From positions 1 through 64,000 of the IMG/VR virus record IMGVR_UViG_2667527450_000001: DNA of 64,000 nucleotides, one strand, 5' to 3'. Both the position numbers and the translations under genes were made by a program. The notes under the pieces are model-generated. The model saw nothing but the letters and a program-made list of their open reading frames with translations, searched no databases and had not been told where the DNA came from. The DNA is from a virus. Its lineage: Duplodnaviria > Caudoviricetes. Shown here in pieces: positions 878-46,740 of this stretch (the stretch's first letter is position 1; each line of letters opens with the position of its first letter).

Positions 878-1254
878 CCGAGCCTGCCGACCACCCCTTC
901 GTCCGGGCGGTCAAACCGCTGGTGGATGCCATGGGTGGCCAGATGGTCGCGCCTGATCAGGCCAGCGGCGACGACGTCGTGCTGGCCTGGGAGGGGCGGG
1001 ACCGGGTGGCCGTCCGGCTCCCGCATCTGTCCGAGTCGCTCGATCACATCCTCGCCGAGCTGGAGCGCCGGCACGGCATGCCGCTCTCCGAGCTGGACCG
1101 CAGGACCAAGCAGTCGGCGGTGCGGATATTGGAGAGCCGGGGTGCTTTTTCGGTCCGGCACGGGGTCGAGACGGTCGCCGGCGCCCTCGGTGTCAGCCGC
1201 TTTACTGTGTACAACTACCTGAATAGGGAGAAGGGGACCGAACCCGAGGGCTGA
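874..1254 (+). CDS. HTH domain transcriptional regulator (HTH_22/YheO C-terminal-like; host, possible integration target)
   Basis: GAFSVRHGVETVAGALGVSRFTVYNYLN motif. Confidence 0.8.
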   Translation: MTEPADHPFVRAVKPLVDAMGGQMVAPDQASGDDVVLAWEGRDRVAVRLPHLSESLDHILAELERRHGMPLSELDRRTKQSAVRILESRGAFSVRHGVETVAGALGVSRFTVYNYLNREKGTEPEG

Positions 1255-1388: not shown

Positions 1389-2642
1389 CTACGAAGCCAC
1401 GGCCCGCAGCCCGCCGCCGTCAAGAGCCGACCGCACCCGCTCCACAGAGTTCGCGCTCGCGTGCGTATACAGCCACGTGATCTTCGCCCCCCGTTCGTGC
1501 CCCAGGATCTTCTGGGCGTCAGCCTCGGGAACCCCCAGGCTATGGAGCCGTGAGGCAAATGCGTGCCGGACGTCGTGCAGATGAGGCCACCGCTCCACTC
1601 GCCCCGTGACCGGGTTAGTCGCCTTCCGGGACACGCCCGCCTTATCGGCAGCGGCCGTCCATACCCGCCAGAAGTTCGATCGCCCGAGCACGCCCCCGCC
1701 GACGCTACGGAACACCAACTCCTCCTTGTGCATGCCGCTCGCCGGCGCGGTCCGGGCGCTGGAAGCCGGGCACCGCTCCAGGTGCCTCTTGATGGCACGC
1801 GCTGCACGATCCGAAAGTGGCACCGACCGGCTACCGGCGGCTGACTTCGGGTACGCCTTTCGGACCGCCTTCCCGCGCACCTGAATGATCGTCTCCCGTA
1901 CTTGCAGGCTAAGCCCTTCCAGGTCCACATTGCACCGCCGCAGGCCGATCAGTTCGCCCCAGCGCAGGCCGGTTTCCTCGGCCACAACCAACATGTCGCG
2001 GAAATGCTCTGGCACGCACGCGCGGATCTCCGCGAGCTGGTCATAGGTGGGCGGCAGGACGTCATCAGGGTGCTTCGGCTGAGCCTTCGGTAGCCGCACG
2101 CCGTCGCACGGGTTGTAGGCGATCCTGCGGTCTCGTAGGGCGGATGTGAGCATCCCGTCGAGCATGCGGAACGCCTTCTCGATCGTCGCGACCCCAACCG
2201 CGCGGACGCGATCGGCGACCCATGCCTCGACGTCCATGTTGCTGATCGATTGCAGTCGCCACTTCCCGAAGTGCGGTTGCACGTGGTTGGTCCACACGCT
2301 GTCAGCGGTTTCGCGGGTGTTGTCGCCGATGCGCTGAGCTGGTCGCCACTTCTCGCGCCACTCCTCCAGCGTGATCTGGCCGCGGTCCAGGTCCACGAAC
2401 GAGCCGGTGCGGACTTGATCACGGGTTTTGTCGAGGAACGCCTCAGCTTTGGCTTTGGCACCCTTGCCGGCGAACTGCTTCGCCCGCTGCCTCCCGGCGG
2501 GATCCCGGTAGCGTGCCTGCCACGGCCCGGTGCAGTCCTTCCGTGTCGACTTCTCGCCGGGCCTGTACTCCTCGGTGCAGAGCTTGCATCCGCAGGACTT
2601 CGAGCGTTTTTGCCGTGGGTTGTTGCGTGCCTTACGCGCCAC
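1389..2642 (-). CDS. int: Tyrosine recombinase/integrase
   Basis: TGLRWGEL, HDVRH, LGH and catalytic Y (WLYTH); arm-binding N-terminus WQARYRDPAGRQR; GTG start at 2642 with GGGAG RBS. Confidence 0.95.
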   Translation of the reverse strand: MARKARNNPRQKRSKSCGCKLCTEEYRPGEKSTRKDCTGPWQARYRDPAGRQRAKQFAGKGAKAKAEAFLDKTRDQVRTGSFVDLDRGQITLEEWREKWRPAQRIGDNTRETADSVWTNHVQPHFGKWRLQSISNMDVEAWVADRVRAVGVATIEKAFRMLDGMLTSALRDRRIAYNPCDGVRLPKAQPKHPDDVLPPTYDQLAEIRACVPEHFRDMLVVAEETGLRWGELIGLRRCNVDLEGLSLQVRETIIQVRGKAVRKAYPKSAAGSRSVPLSDRAARAIKRHLERCPASSARTAPASGMHKEELVFRSVGGGVLGRSNFWRVWTAAADKAGVSRKATNPVTGRVERWPHLHDVRHAFASRLHSLGVPEADAQKILGHERGAKITWLYTHASANSVERVRSALDGGGLRAVAS

Positions 2643-2892
2643 TGCGCACTCCCTCACGATACGAGCTTGAGTGACGAGACAGCTCTTCCGGCCATGGGAT
2701 GTGGACGCTGTCCCCGCACCAGCATGTCGCACCGGTGCATCCCTGGCGTGCTCCCAAGAAGATGAGCATGGCGCGGACTTGACGTATCGCCTGGCGCCTT
2801 GTGAGTCCACGTCCTATGACGATGGCAACCCGGGTTCGGTCCCACTGGGGTGCCGTTGGGTTGATGTCCTCGACCACCACTTGCGCGCACAT
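2632..2892 (-). CDS. Small hypothetical protein coupled to the integrase (CWC motif)
   Basis: 86-aa ORF with GGGG RBS; stop overlaps integrase start. Confidence 0.6.
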   Translation of the reverse strand: MCAQVVVEDINPTAPQWDRTRVAIVIGRGLTRRQAIRQVRAMLIFLGARQGCTGATCWCGDSVHIPWPEELSRHSSSYREGVRSGA

Positions 2893-3056
2893 GCAGCCCC
2901 CATCGACAGACGGCTAATCGAGTCCGGCCGCAGGTGGAGGTACGGCGGATTACCGACCGTACAGCGGTCAACAACCGTTCGTGAAGGGTTGGTAGACGAT
3001 TCGCGTGATGCTCTCGCAACTCGCCGAAAGTTGCGCGAAACCGCGCGAAATCTCTG

Positions 3057-3431
3057 TCAGTTGCCGGTCTGCGCCTGTGGCTTGCGCTCCTGCATGGCCG
3101 TCATGGTGGCCTCCAGGACACGCCTGTCCTCCGGCGAGATGGACCGGAGAAGGTGGAGGAAGCGCCGCTCTTCCTCTGGGGCCAGCTCGGCGGGGATGTA
3201 TCGTCCGGCCGCCTCGAAGACCTCGGAGACGGAAAGGCCGGCGCCTTCTGCGAGCTGGCGGAGCTTGCTGGGGCTGGGGCCGCGGGTGCCTGTGGCGCGG
3301 TCTCCGCTCTTCCAGCTGTGGAGCGTGGAGATGGACAGGTCGGATCGACGCGCCAGGGTGGACAGGGACCAGCCCCGTTCGTCCATCACGCGTTCGATCA
3401 GCTTCCCCAGTGCATCCACATGTAGAAGCAT
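3057..3431 (-). CDS. XRE-family immunity repressor
   Basis: GWSLSTLARRSDLSISTLHSWKSG HTH; divergent from the cro-like gene, upstream of int. Confidence 0.85.
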   Translation of the reverse strand: MLLHVDALGKLIERVMDERGWSLSTLARRSDLSISTLHSWKSGDRATGTRGPSPSKLRQLAEGAGLSVSEVFEAAGRYIPAELAPEEERRFLHLLRSISPEDRRVLEATMTAMQERKPQAQTGN

Positions 3432-3439
3432 CGGGCATC

Positions 3440-3934
3440 TTCCACATTCACTCAAGCCAGCTTGGCCACGATGGCTCAACCTGGCTTCCACAGTGAATAT
3501 GCGCAGGTGGAAAGGGTGTCCGCCGCAGGGCGGAGAACAGCGGATACATCCCTTGACATCCATCCACATTGAGAGTTGAATGTGGAAACGGGAGGGGCGG
3601 ACATTCCACACTCCGCACCTCCAGGGAACTATCTCGGCCACGAGGGGGCATCACCCATGCAACGACTGGATGAAGGCCGGCCCATACGGGACGCAATGCA
3701 CGAAGCCGGCCTCTCCATCCAGCGCCTCGCCGAGAAGACCAAACAGGTCGACCCCGCTGGCTACGGCATCAGCCGATCCGCCATCGGCCACATGGTCTCC
3801 ACCGGCCCTTCGGGGCGCCGCGTCTTCACCCGGCGCTCCGTGGACCTGGTGGCGGCAGCGCTCGACAGATCCGTCCAGGAGCTCTTCGCCGACAGCCCCA
3901 CCTGATATTCGTGCGCGAACAGCTTCCACATTCA
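3440..3934. promoter_or_regulatory. Lysis/lysogeny switch: operator repeats (consensus TTCCACATTCA) and rightward promoter
   Basis: Exact TTCCACATTCA at 3440 and 3924, inverted at 3577; variants at 3486, 3503 (inverted), 3562 and 3604; TTGACA at 3553. Confidence 0.75.
3657..3905 (+). CDS. Cro-like HTH regulator
   Basis: GLSIQRLAEKT...ISRSAIGHM HTH; first rightward gene. Confidence 0.8.
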   Translation: MQRLDEGRPIRDAMHEAGLSIQRLAEKTKQVDPAGYGISRSAIGHMVSTGPSGRRVFTRRSVDLVAAALDRSVQELFADSPT

Positions 3935-4315: not shown

Positions 4316-4537
4316 ATGAACGCCATTCAAACATCAACTCGTTCCGTGGCCGACCCGACGGTCCTTGCCGAGGTCCGGCAGCGTCTCCTCGCGGACCCGA
4401 GCCACTCGGATGCGGCGGTGTCCGCGACCTCGATGTCCCTCTTCCTCGTCCAGCACCCGGAGGCCCGGGTCTCCGAGATGGACGACTACCCCGAGTTCGC
4501 CGCCCGCTTCACGACCACCGAGGACGATGCCCGATGA
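4316..4537 (+). CDS. Hypothetical phage protein
   Basis: RBS; ATGA coupling to next gene. Confidence 0.65.
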   Translation: MNAIQTSTRSVADPTVLAEVRQRLLADPSHSDAAVSATSMSLFLVQHPEARVSEMDDYPEFAARFTTTEDDAR

Positions 4538-4968
4538 CCACGACCACTCATCTGACCGTCGCTGACCTCGCAAGTCTCGCCTTCGCTAAGTGGGAGGCCG
4601 AGGGCGAAGCCAAGGGCGACGAGATGTTCGAGCAGCACCGCGAGGAGTTCCTGGCCTTCGCCCGTGGCAAGGCCCGCAGCGTCCTCGGCGAGGAGGCTGC
4701 CACCCAGCTGGATTGGCAGTACACCAGCACGCTCGTTCTGCCGGCGGACACGGAGCAAGCCACGGCGAGCCTCGGCGAGGGCCGCACCGAGTACCTGAGG
4801 TACCGCGTAGTCGACGGTGACGAGGTGTCGTTCACCCTCGTGCAGCCGTGTGGCACGTGCGGCCACGACCAGGTCAACGAGCTTCGCGACCTCACCCACC
4901 TCGGCGGGCTCCTCGAAACCGCCGCCGACCTTGCGAAGGCCGTGCAGGGCGGTGGCGACCGTGGCTGA
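4534..4968 (+). CDS. Hypothetical phage protein (CxxC)
   Basis: ATG at 4534, coupled; QPCGTCGH. Confidence 0.7.
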   Translation: MTTTTHLTVADLASLAFAKWEAEGEAKGDEMFEQHREEFLAFARGKARSVLGEEAATQLDWQYTSTLVLPADTEQATASLGEGRTEYLRYRVVDGDEVSFTLVQPCGTCGHDQVNELRDLTHLGGLLETAADLAKAVQGGGDRG

Positions 4969-5428
4969 CGACCGTCTGACCGAGATCGCGGCCCGCGCGA
5001 CGGCGGTCACCCCAGGCCCGTGGCTGCAGCGTTCTGACGCCGGGATCGTCACCGATGCCGAGGACCGGCCGCTGGCCGTGTTCGGCACGAGCGGCCCCCA
5101 CTGCGTCGACGCCACCTTCATCGCCCACGCCCCGGAGGACGTCCGGTGGCTGCTCGCCCAGCTGGAGCAGGCCCGTGCCATCGCCGTCGAGTTGGAGAAC
5201 GAGAACGCGCGGCTCACCGCCGCCATGGAGCGTCGCCGTAAGCGTCTGGTGGCTGCGGAGGCTGACCTCCTCGACATGCGGGGAACGCTTTCCCCGAGCG
5301 GAGCCCCGCGGCGTGTACCGATGGAGCTCGGTGGACGCCTCACGCCGGTCGTCGAATGGCTCCTCGACGAAAACGCCCGGCTCACTGCCGACCTCTCGAA
5401 GGACGCCAGCAGGGGCGGCGTCTCGTGA
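4961..5428 (+). CDS. Ead/Ea22-like phage protein
   Basis: RLTEIAARATAVTPGPW...DATFIAHAPEDVRWLL motif. Confidence 0.65.
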   Translation: MADDRLTEIAARATAVTPGPWLQRSDAGIVTDAEDRPLAVFGTSGPHCVDATFIAHAPEDVRWLLAQLEQARAIAVELENENARLTAAMERRRKRLVAAEADLLDMRGTLSPSGAPRRVPMELGGRLTPVVEWLLDENARLTADLSKDASRGGVS

Positions 5429-5796
5429 CCGCCGCGCTCACCCTCATCCGCCCATCTGGAGGCGTCATGTCTCTGACCGCTTTCGACCAGGCCCGCGGCT
5501 ACCGTCTGTTGACCGAGCTGGGGGAGTCCCACCCGCATCTGCCGGCGGCTGAGGTGCACGTGCACCGTCAGATCTCGTTGGTGGCTGAGCTGACCATCGA
5601 CGTGTCCCTACACGGCGACGAGGTCGGTTTCGCGCAGTGGCAGCGTGCCCTCGGTATCACCGCGGTGGACACGCGCCGGATCGAGTTCGGCGGCTGGGTG
5701 TCCTCCGGGCACGTCACCCGCGACGGGATCACCGTCATCCTCACCCTGCATCACCGGCAAGAGGCTCCGGTGCTGGCTCTGGCGGTGGCGTCATGA
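5425..5796 (+). CDS. Hypothetical phage protein (alternative start 5467)
   Basis: Coupled ORF with typical codon usage. Confidence 0.65.
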   Translation: MTAALTLIRPSGGVMSLTAFDQARGYRLLTELGESHPHLPAAEVHVHRQISLVAELTIDVSLHGDEVGFAQWQRALGITAVDTRRIEFGGWVSSGHVTRDGITVILTLHHRQEAPVLALAVAS

Positions 5797-10157: not shown

Positions 10158-10288
10158 GGCTCCTCCGCCGGCTCGCCGCACTCCTCCGTCGCCGCGAACC
10201 CCTCGACCCGCAACTCGCCGCACTCGAAGCCATCTGGCGCCACCCCGCCGCCCGCCGCCGCAACACCCCAGGAAGGGGGAACCGATGA
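10154..10288 (+). CDS. Small hypothetical protein (44 aa)
   Basis: Start/stop overlaps on both sides. Confidence 0.5.
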   Translation: MRLLRRLAALLRRREPLDPQLAALEAIWRHPAARRRNTPGRGNR

Positions 10289-11157
10289 CCGCCACGAAGA
10301 CGCTCCCGCCCCACGGAACGCTGTCCCGCCACAAGTACCACGGCTGCAAGTGCGCCACCTGTTATGAGGGCTACCGGACCTATCAGCGGTCCCGCCACCG
10401 CAAGCAGGGCTACGGAACGTGGCAGCCCTACGTCGATGCCGAACCCATCCGGCAGCACCTGCTGAAGCTCCGTGAACAGGGCATCGGCTTCACTCGCGTC
10501 GCCGAGCTCGCCGGCTTGTACCCCGCCACCGTCGGCGGATTCCTCTACGACCTCGGCAACAACAGGCCCCGCAAGGTGAAGGCTCGCCCCGAGATCGCGG
10601 CCAGGATCCTCGCGGTCACCGCCGACACCACCCAGCCATGGCGTATGGACGCCACCGGGACCCGCCGGCGCCTTCAGGCGCTTGCCGCCAACGGCTGGCC
10701 CTTCAAGAGCCTCGGCCCTCACATCGGCGTACACCCCGCAACCGTCGCCAGGCTCCTCCACCAGGACCACGTCTACGCGAGCACGGCCACAGCAGTCGCT
10801 GACACCTACCAGAGCCTTGCCGAAGACCAGCCGGAGCAGCACGGCGTGACCCCTGGTATGGCGCGGCGGGCACGCAATCACGCGGAACGCGAAGGCTGGC
10901 GCACTCCCCAATGGTGGGAGGACATGGGCGACATCGACGACCCCGACTTCGACCCCGACAAGGCAGACGCCGCCCCGACCTTCCTCGAACGAGCAGCCCT
11001 CCGACGCGAGGAGATCATCCACCTCGCCTGGTCCGGCAACGACCCCGACCACATCCACGCCCGGCTCAACGAAGAAGTGTCCATCAGCACCGTCCGAGCG
11101 ATCGTCCGCGAATGGCAGACCGGCCAGAAGCGCGACCGAAGGGTGGCCGCGGCATGA
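10285..11157 (+). CDS. Phage DNA-binding protein (N-terminal Zn motif, tandem HTH)
   Basis: HGT...GCKCATC; DATGTRRRLQALAANGW. Confidence 0.75.
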   Translation: MTATKTLPPHGTLSRHKYHGCKCATCYEGYRTYQRSRHRKQGYGTWQPYVDAEPIRQHLLKLREQGIGFTRVAELAGLYPATVGGFLYDLGNNRPRKVKARPEIAARILAVTADTTQPWRMDATGTRRRLQALAANGWPFKSLGPHIGVHPATVARLLHQDHVYASTATAVADTYQSLAEDQPEQHGVTPGMARRARNHAEREGWRTPQWWEDMGDIDDPDFDPDKADAAPTFLERAALRREEIIHLAWSGNDPDHIHARLNEEVSISTVRAIVREWQTGQKRDRRVAAA

Positions 11158-11405
11158 CCGGCATCTGGCAGGACCAGGCCCTCTGCGCCCAGACCGACCC
11201 CGAGATCTTCGCGCCGGACGTCTACAACGCCGCCACCACCCGCGACGCCAAGGACATCTGCAACCGCTGCGAAGTCAGACGTGAATGCCTCGCTGACGCC
11301 CTCGCGGAGGAAGGCGCCGACGCCATCCAACTGCGCGCAGCCGTCCGCGGAGGCACCACTCCGCGCGAACGCCACGACATCAGCCGCAAGCCAGCCGCCG
11401 CCTAG
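11154..11405 (+). CDS. WhiB-family transcription factor
   Basis: WQDQALCAQTDPEIF...AKDICNRCEVRRECLADAL...GGTTPRER; four Cys. Confidence 0.92.
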   Translation: MTGIWQDQALCAQTDPEIFAPDVYNAATTRDAKDICNRCEVRRECLADALAEEGADAIQLRAAVRGGTTPRERHDISRKPAAA

Positions 11406-11441
11406 ACGCAACGACGCCCCGCCCTACCAGCGGGGCACCCG

Positions 11442-11519
11442 GCCCGGGTGGCGCAACAGGCAGACGCAGCCGCCTTAAAAGCGGATCAAGTGCGGGTTCG
11501 AATCCCGTTCCGGGCTCCA
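11442..11519 (+). tRNA. tRNA-Leu(UAA), reads the rare UUA codon (bldA-type specificity)
   Basis: Acceptor GCCCGGG/TCCGGGC; D arm GCG-CAACAGGCAGA-CGC; anticodon loop CTTAAAA (TAA at 11476-11478); T arm GCGGG-TTCGAAT-CCCGT; encoded CCA; short variable loop; U73. Confidence 0.85.
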
Positions 11520-11545
11520 GACGACCAGATCCCAGGAGAAACCCA

Positions 11546-12505
11546 ATGACCACCTACCTGCTCCACCTCCACATCCCCGGACATGACACGCGGCCACTCA
11601 CCATCACCGGCGGCACCCCGGGTGAACTCGCCGCCGCCGTACACCGGCACGCCCGCGGCCAACTCGGCAGCTCCCGCGTCGACGTACACCTCGACGGCCT
11701 CGACGGCGAAATCGTCGCCCACGGCGCGACCGCGGGCACCTTCACCCTCCAGCCGGTCGAACAAACCCAGCCGGCCACCAGCGACTCCACTGCCGCCGAC
11801 CACGTCGCCCACGGCTACACCATGCGCGACCTCGACCGCGCAGCACGCGCCGCCTGCACAGCCGACCGCACCCTCTCCTCCAACATCAGCCTCCGCTACG
11901 ACCTCGCCTGGTCAGCCATCGCCGAACACCTCGTCACCACCGACCAGCCCCCGGCATGGCCCGAGTTGGTGCGCGTCGGCTGGCAGGCCATCTACCAGGA
12001 CGTGAAGGCCGTCCGCCGCCTCTACGGCGTCGACTCCACCGGCCGCTCCGGCGAGGTGGCATCCGCACCCCGCTTCGTCGCCTACTGGACCCACGCGTCG
12101 ACCGACGGGGCAAGCGACGGCATCGTCGAGCGCATCGCCGTCCACCAGGTTCTCGCCACCCTCCCCGAGCATCAGCGGCAGGCGGTCGTCGCCCTCGCCA
12201 CGCAGGACGACTACCAGAAGGCCGCCGACGCCCTCGGCATCAAGTACGCGACCCTCACCGCCCGCATCCGACACGGCCGCCGAGGATTCCGCACCCTGTG
12301 GTTCTCACCCGAGACCGCCCCGCCCACCAAGGGCACAGACCGTCGCGTCGCCTCCCGAGCCGGCACCCCAAATCACTGCCCGCAGGGCCACGAGTACACG
12401 CCGGAGAACACCATCCGCCGGCCCTCCAGCCGCGGTCGACGCTGCCGCACCTGTGAACAGATCCGCGACGCCGCCCGCAACCGCCGCCGTGCGGAGGTGG
12501 CTTGA
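11546..12505 (+). CDS. Sigma-70 region 4-like HTH protein with C-terminal Zn ribbon
   Basis: LATLPEHQRQAVVALA...YQKAADALGIKYATLTARIRHGR; HCPQGHEYTPENT...RCRTC. Confidence 0.7.
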   Translation: MTTYLLHLHIPGHDTRPLTITGGTPGELAAAVHRHARGQLGSSRVDVHLDGLDGEIVAHGATAGTFTLQPVEQTQPATSDSTAADHVAHGYTMRDLDRAARAACTADRTLSSNISLRYDLAWSAIAEHLVTTDQPPAWPELVRVGWQAIYQDVKAVRRLYGVDSTGRSGEVASAPRFVAYWTHASTDGASDGIVERIAVHQVLATLPEHQRQAVVALATQDDYQKAADALGIKYATLTARIRHGRRGFRTLWFSPETAPPTKGTDRRVASRAGTPNHCPQGHEYTPENTIRRPSSRGRRCRTCEQIRDAARNRRRAEVA

Positions 12506-12923: not shown

Positions 12924-13907
12924 ATGCCCTGGTTCGCGCTCGACGACGGGTTCGACACCCACCCGAAGGTCCGCAAGGCGGGTAACGCTGCGGCCGGGCT
13001 GTTCTGCCGCATGGGCGCCCACTGCGCGAAGCACCTCACTGAGGGGCTCGTCGACAGCGCGACCGCGCGGGACTACGGCAGCGTTGCCCAGCTCCGGAAG
13101 CTGGTAGACGTCGGCATGTTGCACCCGGCCGGCCACGGTTGTGGAAGGTGCCCGCAGCCAGAGCCGGGCGGATACGTCTTGCATGACTACCTCGACTACA
13201 ACCGGTCCCGGAAGCAGATCGAGACGGCCCGGGAGAACGGCCGGAAGCGCCAGCAGAAGGGTCGCGACCGGCAGGCTGAAGCCCGCAAGCGCAATGATTC
13301 GAGCGCGAATCGAGACGCAAACGCCGCCCAAAATGAACGCGATTTGGCGTCATTTTGCGTCCAAAATGAACCTCACTTTGAGGAAGGAACCGCAGGCCAG
13401 GGGCATGTGTCACGGCGTGACACCCTCCAGGGTGCTACGGCCGTCCCCTCCCATCCCATCCCCAGCAGTTCTTTCAGAACTGCTGCTAAGGGCAGCGGGC
13501 AGCTGGCCGGGATCTCCATCCCCGAGTGGGCGCAGCCTCTGGTCGACGCTCTCAGCGACAGCAACATCCACCTCAGCTGGCGACTCAGCACGATGCAGTG
13601 GGGCGCGGTCCAGGAACTGATCAACACCCGTGGGGTGCCGTTCCTTGCAGAGCAGGCCCGACGCCGCTGGAACCCGAAAGACCCGATCAAGTTCGCCAGC
13701 TTGCTGATTCAAATCTGGTGCGAGATCCCGGCCCCGTCGCCCCGCAAGGCCCGCGACGGCTCGTCGAACGAACTTCCCCCGTACTGCGGCGACCCCGACT
13801 GCGACGAAGTCACCCGCACCCGCGACGTCGAGCACGCCAACGGGATCCGCTCTCTCACGCCGTGCCCTGTATGCCACCCATCCCGTAAGGAGAACCGAGC
13901 CGCATGA
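12924..13907 (+). CDS. Phage replication initiator / replisome organizer
   Basis: MPWFALDDGFDTHPKV...GYVLHDYLDYN; directly upstream of DnaB. Confidence 0.75.
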   Translation: MPWFALDDGFDTHPKVRKAGNAAAGLFCRMGAHCAKHLTEGLVDSATARDYGSVAQLRKLVDVGMLHPAGHGCGRCPQPEPGGYVLHDYLDYNRSRKQIETARENGRKRQQKGRDRQAEARKRNDSSANRDANAAQNERDLASFCVQNEPHFEEGTAGQGHVSRRDTLQGATAVPSHPIPSSSFRTAAKGSGQLAGISIPEWAQPLVDALSDSNIHLSWRLSTMQWGAVQELINTRGVPFLAEQARRRWNPKDPIKFASLLIQIWCEIPAPSPRKARDGSSNELPPYCGDPDCDEVTRTRDVEHANGIRSLTPCPVCHPSRKENRAA

Positions 13908-15259
13908 CCGACGAGTTCGAAGACCTGGAGCGCACCCCGCCTCAGCACCTGGAAGCTGAGCAGGCTGTTCTCGGGGCGATGTTGCTCAGCCCCAGGAGCG
14001 TCATCGACCAGGTGATGCCCATCGTCAAGCCGGATGACTTCTACCGTCCCGCCCACGAGATGATCTTCACGGTCATCTGCGACGTCTACGGCCGCAGCCG
14101 CGACCCGAAGATCGACCCCATCACCATTGCCGCCGAGCTTCACAGCGCTGGACTCATCGAAAAAATCGGCGGCGCCACCTACCTTCACACGCTCGTACAG
14201 ACAGTGCCGTCCACCGGCAACGCCGACTACTACGCCCACATCGTCTACGAGAAGGCGCAACTCCGGCGCGTCATCGAAGCGTCCAGCAGGGCCGCTTCCC
14301 GCGCCTACGCCTCCCAGGGCGAGGCGACCGAAATCGTCGATGACGCCATGGCAGAGCTGCAAGGCGCCGCCACTGGCATCTCCGCAATCGAGGTCAAGCT
14401 CAGCGTCAGCGACCGGTGGGCCGGCTTCCTCGACGAGCTGGAGGCCGGCAAGGATCCCCGGGCACTGGACACGCCCTGGCAAGACCTCAACGAAATCGTC
14501 GAGTTGAAGCCCGGCCAGCTAGTGACAGTCGGCGCCGCCACGGGCGGAGGTAAATCGCTGCTCGGCATGAACCTCGCCGCGCACGTCGCCATGACCCGAG
14601 CCCGGCCCGTGCTCGTCGCCTCCATGGAGATGGGCGGCTCGGAACTCATGGCGCGCCTCACCGCAGCCGAAGCGTCCGTGAACTTGGACCGGCTCATTCG
14701 CCGGAAGCTTGAGGACTCCGACTGGGCAAAGATCGCGAAGGCTTCGGAGCGGCTACAGAACGCCCAGAACTTCATCCTCGACGACTCGCCCAGCCTCACC
14801 GTCAGCAAAATCCGGGCCCGCATGCGATGGATGACCTCCCGCGGCACACCACCCGCCATGGTCGTCGCCGATTACCTCCAGCTCCTCACCCCCGAGAGCA
14901 GCAAGGGCAGCGGCGAGAAGTCCCGAGCTGTGGAAGTCGCCGAGCTATCCCGCAACTTGAAGCTGCTGGCGATGGAGTTCGAGATCCCCGTAGTCGCCCT
15001 TGCCCAGTTCAATCGCAACGCGGTCGGCCGCCAGCCGCAGGTGTCGGACTTCAAGGACTCGTCGGCGATCGAGCAGGACTCGAACGTGATCGTGCTCATG
15101 CACCGACCGCTGGCCGAGGACGGATCCGACACCAGCGAACGCGCCGGTGAGATCGACCTCATCGTCGCGAAGAACCGCAACGGCGCCTCCGGCCGCATCG
15201 TCCCCCTGGTCTTCCAAGGCCACTACGCCCGCCTGCGGTCCCTCGGCCGCGCCGTCTGA
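13904..15259 (+). CDS. dnaB: Replicative DNA helicase
   Basis: EAEQAVLGAML, DFYRPAH, Walker A GAATGGGKS, VVADYLQLL, SAIEQDS, AKNRNG. Confidence 0.95.
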   Translation: MTDEFEDLERTPPQHLEAEQAVLGAMLLSPRSVIDQVMPIVKPDDFYRPAHEMIFTVICDVYGRSRDPKIDPITIAAELHSAGLIEKIGGATYLHTLVQTVPSTGNADYYAHIVYEKAQLRRVIEASSRAASRAYASQGEATEIVDDAMAELQGAATGISAIEVKLSVSDRWAGFLDELEAGKDPRALDTPWQDLNEIVELKPGQLVTVGAATGGGKSLLGMNLAAHVAMTRARPVLVASMEMGGSELMARLTAAEASVNLDRLIRRKLEDSDWAKIAKASERLQNAQNFILDDSPSLTVSKIRARMRWMTSRGTPPAMVVADYLQLLTPESSKGSGEKSRAVEVAELSRNLKLLAMEFEIPVVALAQFNRNAVGRQPQVSDFKDSSAIEQDSNVIVLMHRPLAEDGSDTSERAGEIDLIVAKNRNGASGRIVPLVFQGHYARLRSLGRAV

Positions 15260-27480: not shown

Positions 27481-27538
27481 GGTGTCTTAAGGCGTCTTGG
27501 GACGATCCTTGACTTCGGCAGGTGTCTTAAGTCATTCT
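27481..27538. promoter_or_regulatory. GntR operator repeats overlapping the tra promoter
   Basis: GGTGTCTTAAG at 27481 and 27521, GTCTTGGGAC at 27494; TTGACT (27509)-18 nt-CATTCT (27533). Confidence 0.7.
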
Positions 27539-27664
27539 AGAGCTGTGCCCGAGGACGTACACCGGGGCACAGGCCACTGTGCGCAAAAAGGCCCCAGCGG
27601 GGTCGTCGCGGTGCTCGCAACACCGCGCCCGCCAGGGCCACGCATCCTGAGATTGGAGTTCTCG

Positions 27665-27910
27665 ATGCACGACAACCCTACCGCGCAGGCGCCATCGCAG
27701 GTGGCGTCCTCGAAGCCTTACCGGGTCAAGGAAGTCGCTTCCACCCTTGGTGTCGACATCTCGACCGTGTACGCCGCGATCCACGAGGGCCAACTTGTCG
27801 CGTACCGCGTTGGCTCGGGCCGCGGAACCTTTCGTGTCCCCCGTTCAGCCCTCGCTGAGTACGCCGCAAAGCGCGGCATCCCCAGCGAATTGCTGGAGGT
27901 GGCCTCGTGA
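27665..27910 (+). CDS. Excisionase-family HTH_17 protein
   Basis: YRVKEVASTLGVDISTVYAAIHEGQLVAYRVG...FRVPRSAL. Confidence 0.85.
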   Translation: MHDNPTAQAPSQVASSKPYRVKEVASTLGVDISTVYAAIHEGQLVAYRVGSGRGTFRVPRSALAEYAAKRGIPSELLEVAS

Positions 27911-43293: not shown

Positions 43294-43764
43294 ATGGTCG
43301 CGTCGAAGGCACAGCAGGCCGCTACGGCGGAGCGCCGAGCGAAGGCCATACGTATGAAGATCGAGGGCGCCACGTACACGCAGATCGCGGACGCCCTCGG
43401 GTACGCCTCCCGCAGCGCCGCCCACATGGACGTCAAACGGTCCCTTGAGCGGCACGTCGTCGAGGAGGGCCTCGCCATCGAGGCATGGCGGGAGCTCGAA
43501 CTCGCCCGGCTCGATACTCTCCAGCAGGCCATCTGGGACAAGGCCATGAGCGGAGATCCTCGCGTTATCGAAGCCGCGCTGAAGATCCTCGATCGGCGGG
43601 CCAAGCTCCTCGGGCTGGACAGCGCTATCAAGCTGGAGGTGCTGACGGTTGATGCCCTCGACGCCCAAATCCAGCGCCTCGAAGCCGAACTCAACGCTGC
43701 CGCAATCGCCGCTGTTGACAGCGAAGCTGGAGAAGCTCCGCCGCCTCCGGGAACTACAAGCTGA
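43294..43764 (+). CDS. Terminase small subunit
   Basis: HTH GATYTQIADALGY; ELARLD...RRAKLLGLD; precedes TerL. Confidence 0.8.
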   Translation: MVASKAQQAATAERRAKAIRMKIEGATYTQIADALGYASRSAAHMDVKRSLERHVVEEGLAIEAWRELELARLDTLQQAIWDKAMSGDPRVIEAALKILDRRAKLLGLDSAIKLEVLTVDALDAQIQRLEAELNAAAIAAVDSEAGEAPPPPGTTS

Positions 43765-45238
43765 GGCACAGCGCCGTGAAGCCGAACGACTCCGGCACAT
43801 AGACGTATTCGGCATGCTCGGCTACACACCGACGGCCCGGCAACAGGAGTTCCACGACGCCGACGAATTCGCCGTCTTGATCGGCGGAGCGGCGGGCGGC
43901 GGTAAGAGTAAGGCCCTCACGATGGAGGCCATCCGCGCCTGCGTCCGCTACCCGGGCATCCGGGTTGGCGCGTTCCGCCGCACCTACGGAGAACTCAAAG
44001 AGTCGCTGCTCGCCGAACTGGCGCAGGTGGGCTACGCGGGGGCACTCGGGGCCAGCTGGAACGGCACCGAGTACGAGTTGAAGTTCAACAACGGTTCCCT
44101 ACTCATGTTCCGCTACGCCGAGTCCGTCAAGGATGCGTCCCGCAGGCAGGGCGGCCAGTACCAGATGCTGGTCTTTGATGAGTTGACGCTCACGCCTCCT
44201 GACGTCGTCGCGTTCCTGGAATCCAGGCTCCGCTCGGGACGTAGCGACGTGCCCGTCCTCGGGGTGAAGGCGGGAACGAACCCTGGCGGTCCGGGACACG
44301 GACCGGTGAAAGCGCGGTACGTGGACGCCACCGCCTACGGCACCCGCGTGGCGGTCGACGACCGCGGCAGAACGGTCCGCTTCATCCCCAGCAAGCTGAG
44401 CGACAACCCGCACGTGAACCGGGAGTACGCCGACGACCTCAAGGCCCTCCCGGAGAAGCTCCGCCGGGCCTTCCTCGAAGGAGACTGGGACAGCTTCATG
44501 GGGCAGGCGTTCGCGGAATGGCGCCACGAACGGCACACGGTCGCCCCCATGGCGCTCCCCGCTGCATGGCGGCGGTACGCAGGCATCGACTGGGGCTACA
44601 CAGCGCCCTGGGCAGTCGTGTGGATCGCCGTTGACGAAGACGGCCGGGCCTGGCTGTACCGCGAGCTGTACGCCACCCAGGTCGGCGAGGCTGAGCAGGC
44701 TCGGCGAATACTTGCTGCGGAGGAGGATCGCGAGCAGGTCGCCGTCCGCTACGCCGACGACGCGATGTGGGCAACTCGCGGTGATGCCAAACCGATCGCT
44801 GACGTGTACGCCGAGAACGGGTGCCCGCTCACCGAGGCCGGCAAGGGGCCCGGCAGCCGGATCGCGGGCTGGCAGCGCATGCACTCCTACCTCGCCGAGG
44901 CTCCCGCGTGCCCGCACCATCGGGAGTTGGGATGGGAGACGTGCCCGAAGCTGCACGTCTTCACCAGCTGTGCGAACTTCATCCGCACCGTTCCGGCCCT
45001 GCCGCACGCGACGACGGGCAACCCGGAGGACATCGACACCAACGCTGAGGACCACCTTGCGGACGCGGTCCGCTACGCCGTGATCAATCTCGGTCGTGAA
45101 GCTCGCTTCCACTTCCCGGCCCCGGATCCGGTCGCCCCGGCCCTTGACCCGAACGCCACCAGCAGCCGGCCCGCGCCGGCCGTGCCCAGCATCGGCGGGT
45201 TCCCGATCCTTGAGGGAGGTAGCCCATGGGCGCTCTGA
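43715..45238 (+). CDS. Terminase large subunit
   Basis: GGAAGGGKS Walker A, LVFDEL Walker B, TNPGG, GIDWG, DHLADAVRY. Confidence 0.92.
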   Translation: MTAKLEKLRRLRELQAEAQRREAERLRHIDVFGMLGYTPTARQQEFHDADEFAVLIGGAAGGGKSKALTMEAIRACVRYPGIRVGAFRRTYGELKESLLAELAQVGYAGALGASWNGTEYELKFNNGSLLMFRYAESVKDASRRQGGQYQMLVFDELTLTPPDVVAFLESRLRSGRSDVPVLGVKAGTNPGGPGHGPVKARYVDATAYGTRVAVDDRGRTVRFIPSKLSDNPHVNREYADDLKALPEKLRRAFLEGDWDSFMGQAFAEWRHERHTVAPMALPAAWRRYAGIDWGYTAPWAVVWIAVDEDGRAWLYRELYATQVGEAEQARRILAAEEDREQVAVRYADDAMWATRGDAKPIADVYAENGCPLTEAGKGPGSRIAGWQRMHSYLAEAPACPHHRELGWETCPKLHVFTSCANFIRTVPALPHATTGNPEDIDTNAEDHLADAVRYAVINLGREARFHFPAPDPVAPALDPNATSSRPAPAVPSIGGFPILEGGSPWAL

Positions 45239-46740
45239 GCTGGATCCGGGAGACCTTCCGCCGAACTCCTGCCGCAGAAGCGGCGGCTGGAACTTCGATC
45301 GCGCCGCCGACTCCGGCGCAGGTACGTCGTACTGGCTTCGAGTACGGGCTGCCGCTCAACATCCAGAACACGTCGTCGTTGACCTCTGCCACCAGCGAGC
45401 GGCAGCAGGTTCTCGCGCAGCTGCACCAGGCGTACATGTCCTGCAACTGGGTTTCGGCATCTGTGGACCTGATCGCGCGGACCGTCACGGCTGGCGGCCT
45501 GCAAGCTGTCGCCGATGACGACGGGACCGGTACCGCGCTCGTGACTCCCGAGGTAGCCCGGCTCCAGAGGCTGATGAGGTTCACCAACCCGCGCGAGGAC
45601 ATGGTCCAGCTGCTCAGGTGCGTGGCCACGGACCTACTGTTGTTCGGTGACGCCTACATCGAGATCGTCTACCTGCTCGGCGAACCCGTAGCGCTGTATA
45701 CGCTCGACGCGACCACGATGACCGTGATCGCGGACCAGCACGGCGAGGTGTCCGGCTACATCCAGGATGTCGACGGTGTCCGCACCGCGCAGTTCGATGC
45801 GGATCAGGTTATCCACATCTCTTTGGACGCTCCCCGCGGTGGCCTATACGGGGTCAGCCCGGCGCAGAAGTGCTTGCTGCCGGTCACCGCGTGGCTGTTC
45901 ACGATGGCCACGATCAAGGAGTGCTTCAGGCGTGGTGACCCGCCGCGGCTGCATGTCGATCTCGCCCACTTCCAGGACAACGACGTTCAACGCTGGCGGG
46001 AGCAGTACCGGGTGTTCAACCTCGGTCCGAAGGCTGTCGGGGAGCCCGTGCTGACGACCGGTGGGGGCGGGGTGCAGGTTCTGGACCAGAGGAAGGTCAC
46101 CGACTATCTAGACGCGGACCGGCAGTTGCGGGACCAGATCATCGCGGCATTTGGCGTCCCGCCGGCCAAGCTCGGCATCATCGAGACCGGCAACCTCGGC
46201 GGCGGAACGGGCGAGGCTCAGGACAAGACGTTCCGAGTCAACACGATCATTCCCATTGCCAACCTGATCCTGGAAAAGCTCAACTTCCACCTGCTGTTGC
46301 AGGGCTTCGGGATCACGGACTGGCATCTGGAGTTCCAGGAGATCGACTACCGCGATTCGAAGGTGGTCGAAGAGATTAGGGAGATGAGGCTCCGCGCGGG
46401 CGCCTACTCACTGAACCGGTGGCGTGCCGAGATCGGCGAACCCCCAGTCGAAGGCGGCGACACCCCTATCTTCATGGAGCGCACGTTCATCGCCGATTGG
46501 GCCAACATGGAAGACCTCGCCAAGAGCTTCATCGTCAAGAACCTTGGGGCGTCAGCCCAGCAGCCCGGTAGTGCACCGCAGGACCCGAACGACCTTGCCC
46601 CGCCCGCATCCGGCGACGGACCAAGCGACCCGGAAGACGGGCCTGGCTTGTCGAAGGACGCGGCGCAGGGTGAGCCACCGGAGGAGATGTGGGATGACCT
46701 CTACCGGCGCATCCTCAACGAGACCCTCGCTGGAGTCTGA
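45226..46740 (+). CDS. Portal protein
   Basis: LLFGDAYIE, YGVSP, IIAAFGVPPAKLG, NRWRAEIGEPPVEGGD. Confidence 0.9.
   Translation: MGALSWIRETFRRTPAAEAAAGTSIAPPTPAQVRRTGFEYGLPLNIQNTSSLTSATSERQQVLAQLHQAYMSCNWVSASVDLIARTVTAGGLQAVADDDGTGTALVTPEVARLQRLMRFTNPREDMVQLLRCVATDLLLFGDAYIEIVYLLGEPVALYTLDATTMTVIADQHGEVSGYIQDVDGVRTAQFDADQVIHISLDAPRGGLYGVSPAQKCLLPVTAWLFTMATIKECFRRGDPPRLHVDLAHFQDNDVQRWREQYRVFNLGPKAVGEPVLTTGGGGVQVLDQRKVTDYLDADRQLRDQIIAAFGVPPAKLGIIETGNLGGGTGEAQDKTFRVNTIIPIANLILEKLNFHLLLQGFGITDWHLEFQEIDYRDSKVVEEIREMRLRAGAYSLNRWRAEIGEPPVEGGDTPIFMERTFIADWANMEDLAKSFIVKNLGASAQQPGSAPQDPNDLAPPASGDGPSDPEDGPGLSKDAAQGEPPEEMWDDLYRRILNETLAGV

What the first reader, a model, noticed from the sequence alone, without database searches (positions are those of the whole stretch)
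11442..11519. Phage-encoded tRNA-Leu(UAA): a bldA-equivalent inside the early operon
Seen: a full cloverleaf with anticodon TAA and encoded CCA. Known: in Streptomyces UUA is read by the single bldA tRNA, which gates adpA and many antibiotic regulators. Checking TTA occurrences by eye, I found none in frame in the phage CDSs of this window, so codon supply for these genes is not an obvious purpose. Oddities: short variable loop (host bldA has a long arm), U rather than A at the discriminator position (A73 is a LeuRS identity element), and a G.A mismatch at the top of the anticodon stem. Inference: it may advance or bypass host developmental translation control, act as a decoy or mischarged tRNA, or offset anticodon-nuclease defence.
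Basis: partly seen in the sequence, partly recalled or inferred. Interest (0 to 1): 0.82.

Follow-up and report, generated by a model that had tools for sequence, protein, structure and literature searches.

The report
Short-armed leucine tRNA (UUA) in Streptomyces prophage
A Streptomyces prophage carries a real, well-formed leucine tRNA for the very rare UUA codon that lacks the usual long extra arm; published work shows Streptomyces can charge such tRNAs whatever the base next to the CCA end, so it is an ordinary member of a known kind.

Summary
Window 11442-11519(+) is a tRNA with anticodon UAA, a 6-nt variable loop, G27.A43, U73 and an encoded CCA (ARAGORN; Rfam RF00005, 46.7 bits).

It belongs to a family of 41 distinct short-armed ("type I") tRNA-Leu(UAA) genes, found in Streptomyces prophages, in viral contigs and beside chromosomal bldA. 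Covariation supports the cloverleaf.

Within the family:
- The short loop is universal.
- G.A is the commonest 27:43 state, in 11 of 41.
- Only U73 is rare, in 2 of 41.

Fan et al. 2019 (PMC6614811) showed that S. coelicolor LeuRS charges type I tRNALeu and does not use A73. A73U kept 141% and 88% efficiency, and A73 mutants of bldA fully complemented a bldA null.

The ~72.8-kb prophage has no credible in-frame TTA, against 1.8 expected at the host rate.

Most likely this is a functional, bldA-independent UUA decoder carried as an accessory gene in the early operon. Its purpose is untested.

This scan has reported the same kind of tRNA before on other DNA. I class it as a new member of a known kind, of modest interest.

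The parts
11442..11519 (+). Type I (short variable loop) tRNA-Leu, anticodon UAA, U73, CCA encoded
   Evidence: ARAGORN; Rfam RF00005 at 46.7 bits; family alignment and covariation
11416..11436 (+). G+C hairpin (7-bp stem GCCCCGC/GCGGGGC, 7-nt loop) between the whiB stop and the tRNA 5' end, with no U tract. Possibly a processing or mRNA-end structure (inference).
   Evidence: Read from the sequence. No sigma-70-like promoter and no + strand terminator called in 10200-12000.
11154..11405 (+). WhiB-like gene directly upstream. Its ATG overlaps the stop of the preceding gene (ATGA).
   Evidence: Pfam PF02467 Whib, E 1.2e-15; PHROG WhiB families; start read
10285..11157 (+). HTH protein of the early operon, used to find related phages
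   Evidence: Pfam HTH_23/HTH_38; relatives found
11546..12505 (+). Gene 27 nt downstream of the tRNA: HTH (sigma-70 region 4-like) plus a C-terminal HNH endonuclease domain, with its own AGGAG ribosome site
   Evidence: Pfam; PHROG HNH endonuclease, E 4e-11. Homologues lie next to the tRNA in L054, L051 and L075.
12924..15259 (+). Replication initiator (12924-13907) and DnaB helicase (13904-15259) further down the same operon
   Evidence: PHROG replication initiation protein; Pfam DnaB/DnaB_C
3057..3641 (-). Phage repressor-like HTH gene, divergent from the rightward early genes
   Evidence: PHROG transcriptional repressor families
1389..2810 (-). Tyrosine integrase
   Evidence: Pfam Phage_integrase, E 8e-19
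1209..1229 (.). attL core. The 21-bp exact direct repeat recurs at G000:C70:73967-73987 (attR, outside the window), which bounds an element of about 72.8 kb.
   Evidence: blastn-short, E 8e-06, and sequence print
43649..46740 (+). Large terminase and portal genes, which mark the element as a phage. Neither has a TTA codon.
   Evidence: Pfam Terminase_6N and Phage_portal; TTA counts

Best explanation
This is a genuine, structurally intact type I tRNA-Leu(UAA) gene. It is carried as an accessory gene in the rightward early/replication operon of a ~72.8-kb integrated Streptomyces phage.

Inferred mechanism:
1. It is transcribed as part of the polycistronic early transcript, between whiB and an HTH-HNH gene.
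2. The usual tRNA-processing enzymes cut it out. CCA is already encoded.
3. The host LeuRS leucylates it.
4. It then reads UUA, and possibly UUG by wobble, as leucine, independently of the host's developmentally controlled bldA tRNA.

The short variable loop, G27.A43 and U73 do not stand in the way, because Streptomyces LeuRS accepts short-armed tRNALeu and ignores position 73.

Shown here or in print: the gene, its fold, its family, its context, and the tolerance of S. coelicolor LeuRS.

Inferred: expression, charging in this host, and any benefit. The prophage itself has no credible TTA codon. Any benefit would therefore lie in TTA-bearing genes of the host or of other mobile DNA, or the gene is kept as cheap insurance.
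For: 1. It is a tRNA by two programs.

2. The body is leucine-type. The five best matches of its first 27 nt among the 90 other host tRNAs are all Leu tRNAs, the best being 23 of 27 with Leu(CAG). C3-G70 rules out the alanine mark.

3. The family holds 41 distinct sequences:
- the window's copy;
- 7 from a 400-genome genus sample;
- 30 loci from the genome-contig scan and 8 from viral contigs, of which 5 were identical to earlier ones.

4. The cloverleaf is supported by covariation. 98.9% of cells pair, 6 of 20 pairs change on both sides, 0 of 500 shuffles reach the covariation score, and slid controls pair at 34-48%.

5. Trait counts in the family:
- variable loop of 5 nt in 24, 6 nt in 16 and 7 nt in 1;
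- 27:43 is G.A in 11 of 41;
- 7:66 is G-U in 6 of 41;
- N73 is A in 37, U in 2 and G in 2.

6. The tRNA is far better conserved than its flanks. It is about 96% identical to L038 and L058. The L038 flanks are about 76-79% identical in DNA, with WhiB at 54% in protein. The L058 flanks gave no DNA match of 100 nt or more.

7. The Rfam score of 46.7 bits lies within the 44.8-57.5 range of the 15 relatives scanned alongside it.

8. Fan et al. 2019 (PMC6614811; sections and Table 1 read) reported:
- S. coelicolor LeuRS charges a native type I tRNALeu.
- A73U gives 141% (type I) and 88% (bldA) relative kcat/Km.
- All three bldA A73 mutants restore a bldA null.
- C74 and U8-A14 matter, and both are present here.
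- At least 5 nt of variable loop are needed; here there are 6.

9. The host LeuRS has the same long architecture. It is about 965 aa and carries the RLRDW..SRQRYWG motif at about residue 518, against R517 in S. coelicolor.
Against: - No expression or charging data exist for this gene. No RNA run of this organism was listed.
- The LeuRS data come from S. coelicolor, not this host. They were obtained on a 5-nt loop and on other tRNA bodies.
- The Rfam score is near the bottom of the family range.
- The MFE fold alone does not give the cloverleaf.
- There is no obvious need. I found 0 credible TTA codons in the prophage. TTG use is only slightly above the host's, 5.5 against 4.1 per 1000.
- Flanks of tRNA-carrying relatives show TTA at the host background rate. 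The script counted 8 in 44,311 codons. I judge that 3 of these are the tRNA anticodon read through by a spurious ORF, which leaves 5.
- The gene is sporadic. None of 6 viral relatives of the neighbouring HTH gene has a tRNA within 4 kb.
- No promoter of its own was found, so it may be silent in the lysogen.
Confidence: 0.7

Rival explanations
1. Selected host manipulation. Expressed early on induction or infection, the tRNA lifts the bldA gate on host TTA genes (adpA and others), and this is what selection keeps it for.
For: The prophage has no credible TTA codon of its own, yet the tRNA is much better conserved than its flanks. By my ORF screen, 183 of 4,719 host ORFs carry TTA. The tRNA sits beside a WhiB-like regulator.
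Against: There is no functional evidence. The gene is sporadic among related phages. Type I copies also sit stably beside chromosomal bldA in several species, so the design is not phage-specific. I did not examine host adpA or its TTA in this genome.
Confidence: 0.15
2. Neutral passenger or slowly decaying copy. The tRNA spreads with mobile DNA, for example with the neighbouring HNH endonuclease gene, and does nothing useful here. On this view U73, G7-U66 and G49-U65 are the first steps of decay.
For: An HNH homologue is adjacent to or near the tRNA in L054, L051 and L075 as well as in the window. The distribution is sporadic. There is no TTA demand. The Rfam score is at the low end. Three of the window's departures from the consensus lie in the last 12 nt.
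Against: All 20 stem pairs are still standard or wobble pairs. The G-U states are shared with other members, 6 of 41 and 2 of 41, and U73 recurs in L058. Identity to its relatives is much higher than in the flanks. U73 is harmless to leucylation in S. coelicolor.
Confidence: 0.15
3. Decoy, mischarged tRNA or counter-defence. U73 shifts identity to another synthetase (host tRNA-Gly and tRNA-Cys carry U73), or the tRNA replaces or soaks up an anticodon nuclease target.
For: U73 is shared with host tRNA-Cys and tRNA-Gly. The phage has no TTA demand of its own.
Against: The body is Leu-type. 37 of 41 family members have A73. bldA A73U works as Leu in vivo. The anticodon lacks the GCA and NCC elements; that these two synthetases rely on them is recalled knowledge, not tested here. 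No nuclease targeting tRNA-Leu(UAA) was looked for or found here.
Confidence: 0.04
4. Non-decoding role. The tRNA acts as a processing signal that separates the whiB and HNH messages, or as an attachment site for other elements.
For: It sits in a 140-nt intercistronic gap with a hairpin just upstream. In three viral contigs (L070, L072, L073) the tRNA lies within about 500-800 nt of the end of the stored locus.
Against: The anticodon loop and all decoding features are conserved across 41 sequences. The CTTAAA motif is invariant by construction of the search, but the anticodon stem covaries. That conservation is not needed for a processing or att role.
Confidence: 0.04

Closest known systems
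Type I tRNALeu(CAA) of Streptomyces coelicolor and its charging by ScoLeuRS (Fan et al. 2019, NAR 47:6369, PMC6614811)
   Same: A leucine tRNA with a short variable loop, living in a Streptomyces cell that has a single long LeuRS. U8-A14, G18G19, N48 and C74 are present. Position 73 is free to vary.
   Different: The anticodon is UAA, not CAA. The variable loop is 6 nt, not 5. The gene is prophage-borne, not a core chromosomal gene. It has U73. Charging was not tested for this tRNA or this host.
bldA, the type II tRNALeu(UAA) of Streptomyces
   Same: Same anticodon and codon. The acceptor stem is nearly the same, 6 of 7 pairs matching the host bldA. It would do the same decoding job.
   Different: It has no long variable arm. 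Its D arm and anticodon stem differ. It is not at the bldA locus. It has U73 rather than A73, and it sits under phage early-operon control. It works like bldA but is not a bldA orthologue.
Short-variable-loop tRNALeu genes in phage tRNA arrays and horizontally acquired tRNA clusters of actinobacteria
   Same: Same design on mobile DNA:
- Streptomyces phage Wakanda tRNA-Leu(CAA), 74 nt.
- Mycobacterium phage Phabba tRNA-Leu(GAG), 74 nt.
- A cluster-borne tRNALeu(TAG) with a short variable loop, in a Mycobacterium tRNA cluster that has an HNH endonuclease gene (PMC6582537, passages).
   Different: Those are members of large tRNA arrays in lytic or jumbo phages or in genomic islands. This one is a lone tRNA in a temperate phage's early operon.
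UUA use by phage phiHau3 and prophage StrepC.1 terminase genes (described in PMC10732093, passages read)
   Same: A link between Streptomyces phages and the rare UUA codon and bldA.
   Different: It is the opposite strategy. Those phages place UUA in their terminase so as to depend on bldA. This prophage has no TTA in its terminase and brings its own decoder.

Membership tests
tRNA (Rfam RF00005) | Covariance-model score above the gathering threshold over the full model | tested here: met
   46.7 bits against a threshold of 29, model positions 1-71
tRNA (Rfam RF00005) | Cloverleaf supported by compensatory changes in homologues | tested here: met
   98.9% of cells paired; 6 pairs with changes on both sides; 0 of 500 shuffles reach the score. 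Many stem positions were fixed by the search pattern, so only the anticodon stem, one T-stem pair and the 3' acceptor strand were free to vary.
Type I tRNALeu of Streptomyces (Fan et al. 2019) | Leucine anticodon on a body with a short variable loop of at least 5 nt that keeps N48 | tested here: met
   UAA anticodon and the 6-nt loop UCAAGU
Type I tRNALeu of Streptomyces (Fan et al. 2019) | Leu-type core: U8-A14, G18G19, U54-A58, C74 | tested here: met
   All present in the sequence. The 5' 27 nt are closest to host Leu tRNAs, which take the top 5 places of 90.
Type I tRNALeu of Streptomyces (Fan et al. 2019) | Leucylated by the host's single LeuRS | not testable with these tools
   Only indirect evidence: the host LeuRS has the S. 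coelicolor-like length and motif position.
bldA (type II tRNALeu(UAA)) | Long variable arm (stem-loop) | tested here: not met
   The variable loop is 6 nt, against an arm of about 15 nt in the host bldA.
bldA (type II tRNALeu(UAA)) | Conserved chromosomal locus | tested here: not met
   The host bldA is at C74:488769-488851. This gene is inside a prophage on C70.
bldA (type II tRNALeu(UAA)) | Anticodon UAA reading UUA | tested here: met
Alanine-identity or other recoding tRNA | G3.U70 in the acceptor stem | tested here: not met
   C3-G70 in all 41 family members
Integrated temperate phage | Integrase, repressor, terminase, portal and flanking direct repeats | tested here: met

The most novel reading that the evidence does not exclude
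The phage uses a tRNA as a regulator. The tRNA is made from the early lytic operon and charged by a LeuRS that ignores both its missing arm and its U73. This bldA-independent Leu-tRNA(UAA) would open the host's UUA gate (AdpA and other TTA genes) out of developmental turn. It would reprogramme development or secondary metabolism to the phage's benefit, although the phage itself has no TTA codon.
Probability: 0.15. Interest if true: 0.7.

Novelty: new member of a known kind. Interest (0 to 1): 0.3.

Why it matters
UUA and bldA form a textbook developmental switch in Streptomyces, and strain engineers use it to wake silent antibiotic clusters. If prophage-borne, bldA-independent UUA decoders are active, lysogeny could alter when TTA-containing regulators are made. 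That would also explain some leaky bldA phenotypes.

The gene itself is an ordinary example of a design already documented biochemically, and this scan has found it repeatedly. The U73 variant adds natural support to the published claim that Streptomyces LeuRS does not read position 73: N73 is A in 37, U in 2 and G in 2 of 41 otherwise intact genes.

Tried and rejected
- **Codon supply for the phage.** I rejected this. Every in-frame TTA in any ORF of 50 aa or more was listed. The candidates with gene-like composition were then tested:
  - 2671-3579(+) lies opposite a repressor gene that has PHROG hits.
  - 4486-5565(-) has no family hit, while the + strand ORFs over it do: phrog_722 and DUF6195.
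  - The TTA of 27497-27910(+) lies upstream of the real ATG at 27666, which has a GGAG site.
  - In the part of the prophage outside the window, the one TTA (C70:70116-70433, codon 16) lies two codons before an ATG that is preceded by TACAAT.
  - My gene calls rest on GC-by-codon-position and ORF length, not on a trained gene finder.
- **TTA enrichment around the tRNA in relatives.** None was found.
- **Close relatives among isolated phages.** The best hits to the 78-nt query in 50,697 phage records were only 76-82% identical.
- **MFE folding.** It was uninformative.
- **RNA evidence.** No RNA holder was listed, and read laying was not used.
- **Promoter scan.** Nothing was found, but the scan covers only sigma-70 consensus sites.
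- **Literature.** Searches found no paper in the held library describing a prophage-borne type I tRNA-Leu(UAA) in Streptomyces. PMC10276819 held none of the terms bldA, TTA, tRNA or UUA.
- **Supplements.** They are closed. Supplementary Figure S5 of Fan et al. (A73 mutants of the other isoacceptors) and the supplementary tables of PMC10732093 were not seen.
- **Not done.** I did not locate host adpA, build a tree of the family, or build a covariance model.

Full report
**Observation.** ARAGORN reports a single tRNA in the window, tRNA-Leu(taa) at 11442-11519 on the + strand. Rfam's tRNA model matches 11442-11516 over its full length at 46.7 bits (gathering score 29, E 8.1e-07).

Reading the alignment and the sequence gives:
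- Acceptor stem GCCCGGG/UCCGGGC, with a G7-U66 wobble.
- U8 and A14.
- A three-pair D stem plus C13.A22.
- G18G19.
- Anticodon stem GCCGC/GCGGA, whose top pair is G27.A43.
- Anticodon loop CUUAAAA.
- A six-base variable loop, UCAAGU.
- T arm GCGGG-UUCGAAU-CCCGU, with G49-U65.
- U at position 73, and an encoded CCA.

A single-sequence energy fold does not recover the cloverleaf and is no better than shuffles (z = -0.26). The structural case rests on the covariance model and on homologues.

**Host background.** The window is G000:C70:2-64001, in a 9.36-Mb genome of 94 contigs. ARAGORN finds 91 tRNAs in that genome. Two have anticodon UAA: this one, and an 83-nt long-armed A73 tRNA at C74:488769-488851, which is the host's bldA-type gene.

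The phage tRNA has a leucine-type body. Among the 90 other host tRNAs, the five best matches to its first 27 nt are all Leu tRNAs, the best being 23 of 27 with Leu(CAG). Its acceptor stem matches the host bldA in 6 of 7 pairs. Pair 3:70 is C-G, so the alanine mark is absent.

**The family.** A BLAST of the 78 nt against 400 genomes of the same genus gave clear short-armed homologues in 6 of them. There were 7 loci at 79-87% identity. Two loci, L021 and L023, held a different short tRNA-Leu(UAA) type lying next to a tRNA-Ile(UAU).

An IUPAC pattern scan then found two further sets:
- 30 loci in the species-representative genome collection. Of these, 27 are Streptomyces records, two on one contig, and 3 are MAG contigs that hold tRNA arrays.
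- 8 loci in IMG/VR viral contigs.

After removing 5 identical sequences, 41 distinct sequences including the window's were aligned.

On the cloverleaf, 98.9% of cells form standard pairs and 6 of 20 pairs show changes on both sides. None of 500 shuffles reaches the covariation score, and sliding the partners drops pairing to 34-48%. The search pattern fixed many stem positions, so only the anticodon stem, one T-stem pair and the 3' acceptor strand were free to vary. The compensatory changes lie in exactly those places.

**Which oddities are family traits.** Counts over the 41 sequences:

| Trait | Counts |
|---|---|
| Variable loop length | 5 nt in 24, 6 nt in 16, 7 nt in 1 |
| Pair 27:43 | G.A in 11 (the commonest state), G-C in 7, G-U in 6; the remaining 17 are spread over eight other states |
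| Pair 7:66 | G-U in 6 |
| Pair 49:65 | G-U in 2 (window and L038) |
| CCA encoded | 17 |
| Position 73 | A in 37, U in 2 (window and L058), G in 2 (L051 and L070) |

Only U73 is unusual, and it is not unique.

The window's Rfam score of 46.7 bits sits at the low end of the scores of the 15 relatives scanned alongside it, which range from 44.8 to 57.5. It is equal to that of its closest relative L038, at 46.6.

**Context.**
- A tyrosine integrase lies at 1389-2810(-) and a repressor-like HTH gene at 3057-3641(-).
- A long rightward gene run follows: DUF5131, a Gp3-like factor, an HTH protein, WhiB at 11154-11405, the tRNA, an HTH-HNH protein at 11546-12505, a replication initiator and DnaB.
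- Terminase and portal genes lie at 43.6-46.7 kb. Together these features identify an integrated temperate phage.
- A 21-bp exact direct repeat at window 1209-1229 and at C70:73967-73987 bounds about 72.8 kb.
I only confirmed an Xis-like gene there.
- The tRNA lies in a 140-nt gap, 36 nt after the whiB stop and 26 nt before the next ATG, which has its own AGGAG site. A G+C hairpin at 11416-11436 precedes it. No sigma-70-type promoter was called nearby. Co-transcription with the early genes is the simplest reading, and it is an inference.

**Relatives' context.**
- L038 shares the order HTH - WhiB - tRNA with the window.
- A homologue of the downstream HNH gene lies next to or near the tRNA in L054, L051 and L075.
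- Six viral contigs encoding a relative of the HTH gene (38-60% identity) have no tRNA within 4 kb. One of those contigs carries the tRNA about 5 kb away in another position.
- The tRNA is about 96% identical to L038 and L058. The L038 flanks are about 76-79% identical in DNA, and the L058 flanks gave no DNA match of 100 nt or more.
- The gene is thus a sporadic accessory whose sequence is held far more tightly than its surroundings.

A second subgroup has C38, a GUGGG T stem and a 5-nt loop (17 of 41). These copies lie 0.3-4 kb downstream of the chromosomal bldA in at least 8 distinct loci. In L035 an integrase-like gene sits between the two tRNAs.

**Codon use.** I found no credible in-frame TTA in the prophage:
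- None occurs in 57 high-GC3 ORFs of the window.
- Every TTA-bearing ORF of 50 aa or more was listed and the gene-like ones were tested and rejected.
- One borderline case lies outside the window, two codons upstream of a better start.

By the same screen the host uses TTA at 0.106 per 1000 codons, with 183 of 4,719 ORFs carrying it. The expected number in 16,793 prophage codons is therefore 1.8. Finding none is unremarkable.

TTG is 5.5 per 1000 in the prophage against 4.1 in the host. In 19 loci around tRNA-carrying relatives, the script counted 8 TTA in 44,311 codons. I judge that 3 of these are the tRNA's own anticodon read through by a spurious ORF. The remaining 5 give about the host rate.

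**What is already known.** Fan et al. 2019 (PMC6614811; I read the abstract, Introduction, two Results sections, the first part of the Discussion, Table 1 and the complementation passage) studied a native S. coelicolor tRNALeu(CAA) with a 5-nt variable loop. They reported:
- The cell's single LeuRS charges both types of tRNALeu.
- A73 is not an identity element. A73U gives 141% relative kcat/Km in the type I tRNA and 88% in bldA, and all three bldA A73 mutants fully restore a bldA null strain.
- C74 is essential.
- U8-A14 matters.
- At least five variable-loop bases including N48 are required.
- bldA carrying the 5-nt loop keeps 14% efficiency.

The window's tRNA has U8-A14, G18G19, a 6-nt loop ending in U, and C74. 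The host's LeuRS has the same long form, about 965 aa, with the conserved RLRDW..SRQRYWG motif at about residue 518 against R517 in S. coelicolor.

Short-armed tRNALeu genes are also annotated in Streptomyces phage Wakanda and Mycobacterium phage Phabba. One was noted in a horizontally acquired Mycobacterium tRNA cluster that includes an HNH gene (PMC6582537, passages).

**Mechanism and rivals.**
- *Best reading (0.7).* This is a functional, Leu-inserting UUA decoder made from the phage early operon, independent of bldA and kept as an accessory gene.
- *Selected host manipulation (about 0.15).* Whether selection keeps it to open the host's UUA gate cannot be told from sequence.
- *Neutral passenger or early decay (about 0.15).* The sporadic distribution, the lack of demand and the low-end score fit this reading. 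The intact pairing, the sharing of each variant state with other members and the strong conservation relative to flanks argue against it.
- *Decoy, mischarging or anti-nuclease roles (about 0.04).* These have no support. The body is Leu-type, most relatives have A73, and U73 in bldA still gives leucine function in vivo.
- *Processing or att role (about 0.04).* This would not need the conserved decoding features.

**Novelty and score.** In the held library I found no paper on a prophage-borne type I tRNA-Leu(UAA) in Streptomyces. However, the design and its charging are published. Earlier reports of this scan describe the same kind of gene in other genomes with the same closest known system, which I re-derived independently here.

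I class it as a new member of a known kind, with an interest score of 0.3. The one small addition is that natural variation at position 73 (A, U or G in otherwise intact genes) fits the published claim that Streptomyces LeuRS does not read that base.

Noticed in passing
L031:9597-10077; L032:8777-10076; L035:10001-14130; also L041, L042, L045, L049, L059: In at least 8 distinct loci of other Streptomyces species, a short-armed tRNA-Leu(UAA) lies 0.3-4 kb downstream of the chromosomal long-armed bldA, on the same strand. It falls in the one stretch where synteny with this genome's bldA region breaks. In L031 and L032 a PobA-like flavin monooxygenase ORF follows it. In L035 an integrase-like gene lies between the two tRNAs.
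   Followed up: partly
window 11546-12505; L054:794-1438; L051:4077-4679; L075:9513-9941: A homologue of the HTH + HNH endonuclease gene lies next to or near the short tRNA in four otherwise different phage contexts. This may be a mobile tRNA-HNH cassette, like the homing endonucleases found in phage tRNA regions.
   Followed up: partly
L058:2467-2541 and L051:4776-4852 (one Streptomyces aculeolatus contig): Both short tRNA-Leu(UAA) genes lie on one contig. L058 has U73 with no encoded CCA. L051 has G73 with G1-U72.
   Followed up: no
L040, L052, L060: These MAG contigs are labelled Saccharibacteria, Bacteroidia and Limisphaerales. L040 and L052 each carry an array of 23 tRNAs in which every Leu tRNA is short (75-81 nt). 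L060 has three consecutive 77-nt Leu tRNAs (AAG, UAA, CAG). They look like phage tRNA arrays.
   Followed up: no
L021:1047-1565; L023:1485-1952: A different short tRNA-Leu(UAA) type, with acceptor GGGCCCG, is paired with a tRNA-Ile(UAU) in two other Streptomyces genomes. Both tRNAs decode rare A-ending codons.
   Followed up: no
window 27481-27531: The 11-nt word GGTGTCTTAAG occurs twice, 40 nt apart, in an A+T-richer divergent intergenic region just upstream of an Xis/MerR-like gene whose real start is the ATG at 27666. This looks like an operator-like repeat of the transfer-module switch.
   Followed up: no
window 1209-1229 and G000:C70:73967-73987: A 21-bp exact direct repeat bounds about 72.8 kb next to the integrase and is the likely attL/attR. 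The core is not part of a tRNA gene.
   Followed up: partly
L041:3266-3350; L045:6086-6169: The Rfam gathering-threshold scan listed the short tRNAs but not the long-armed bldA genes that ARAGORN finds in the same loci. This is unexplained and may be a filter effect.
   Followed up: no
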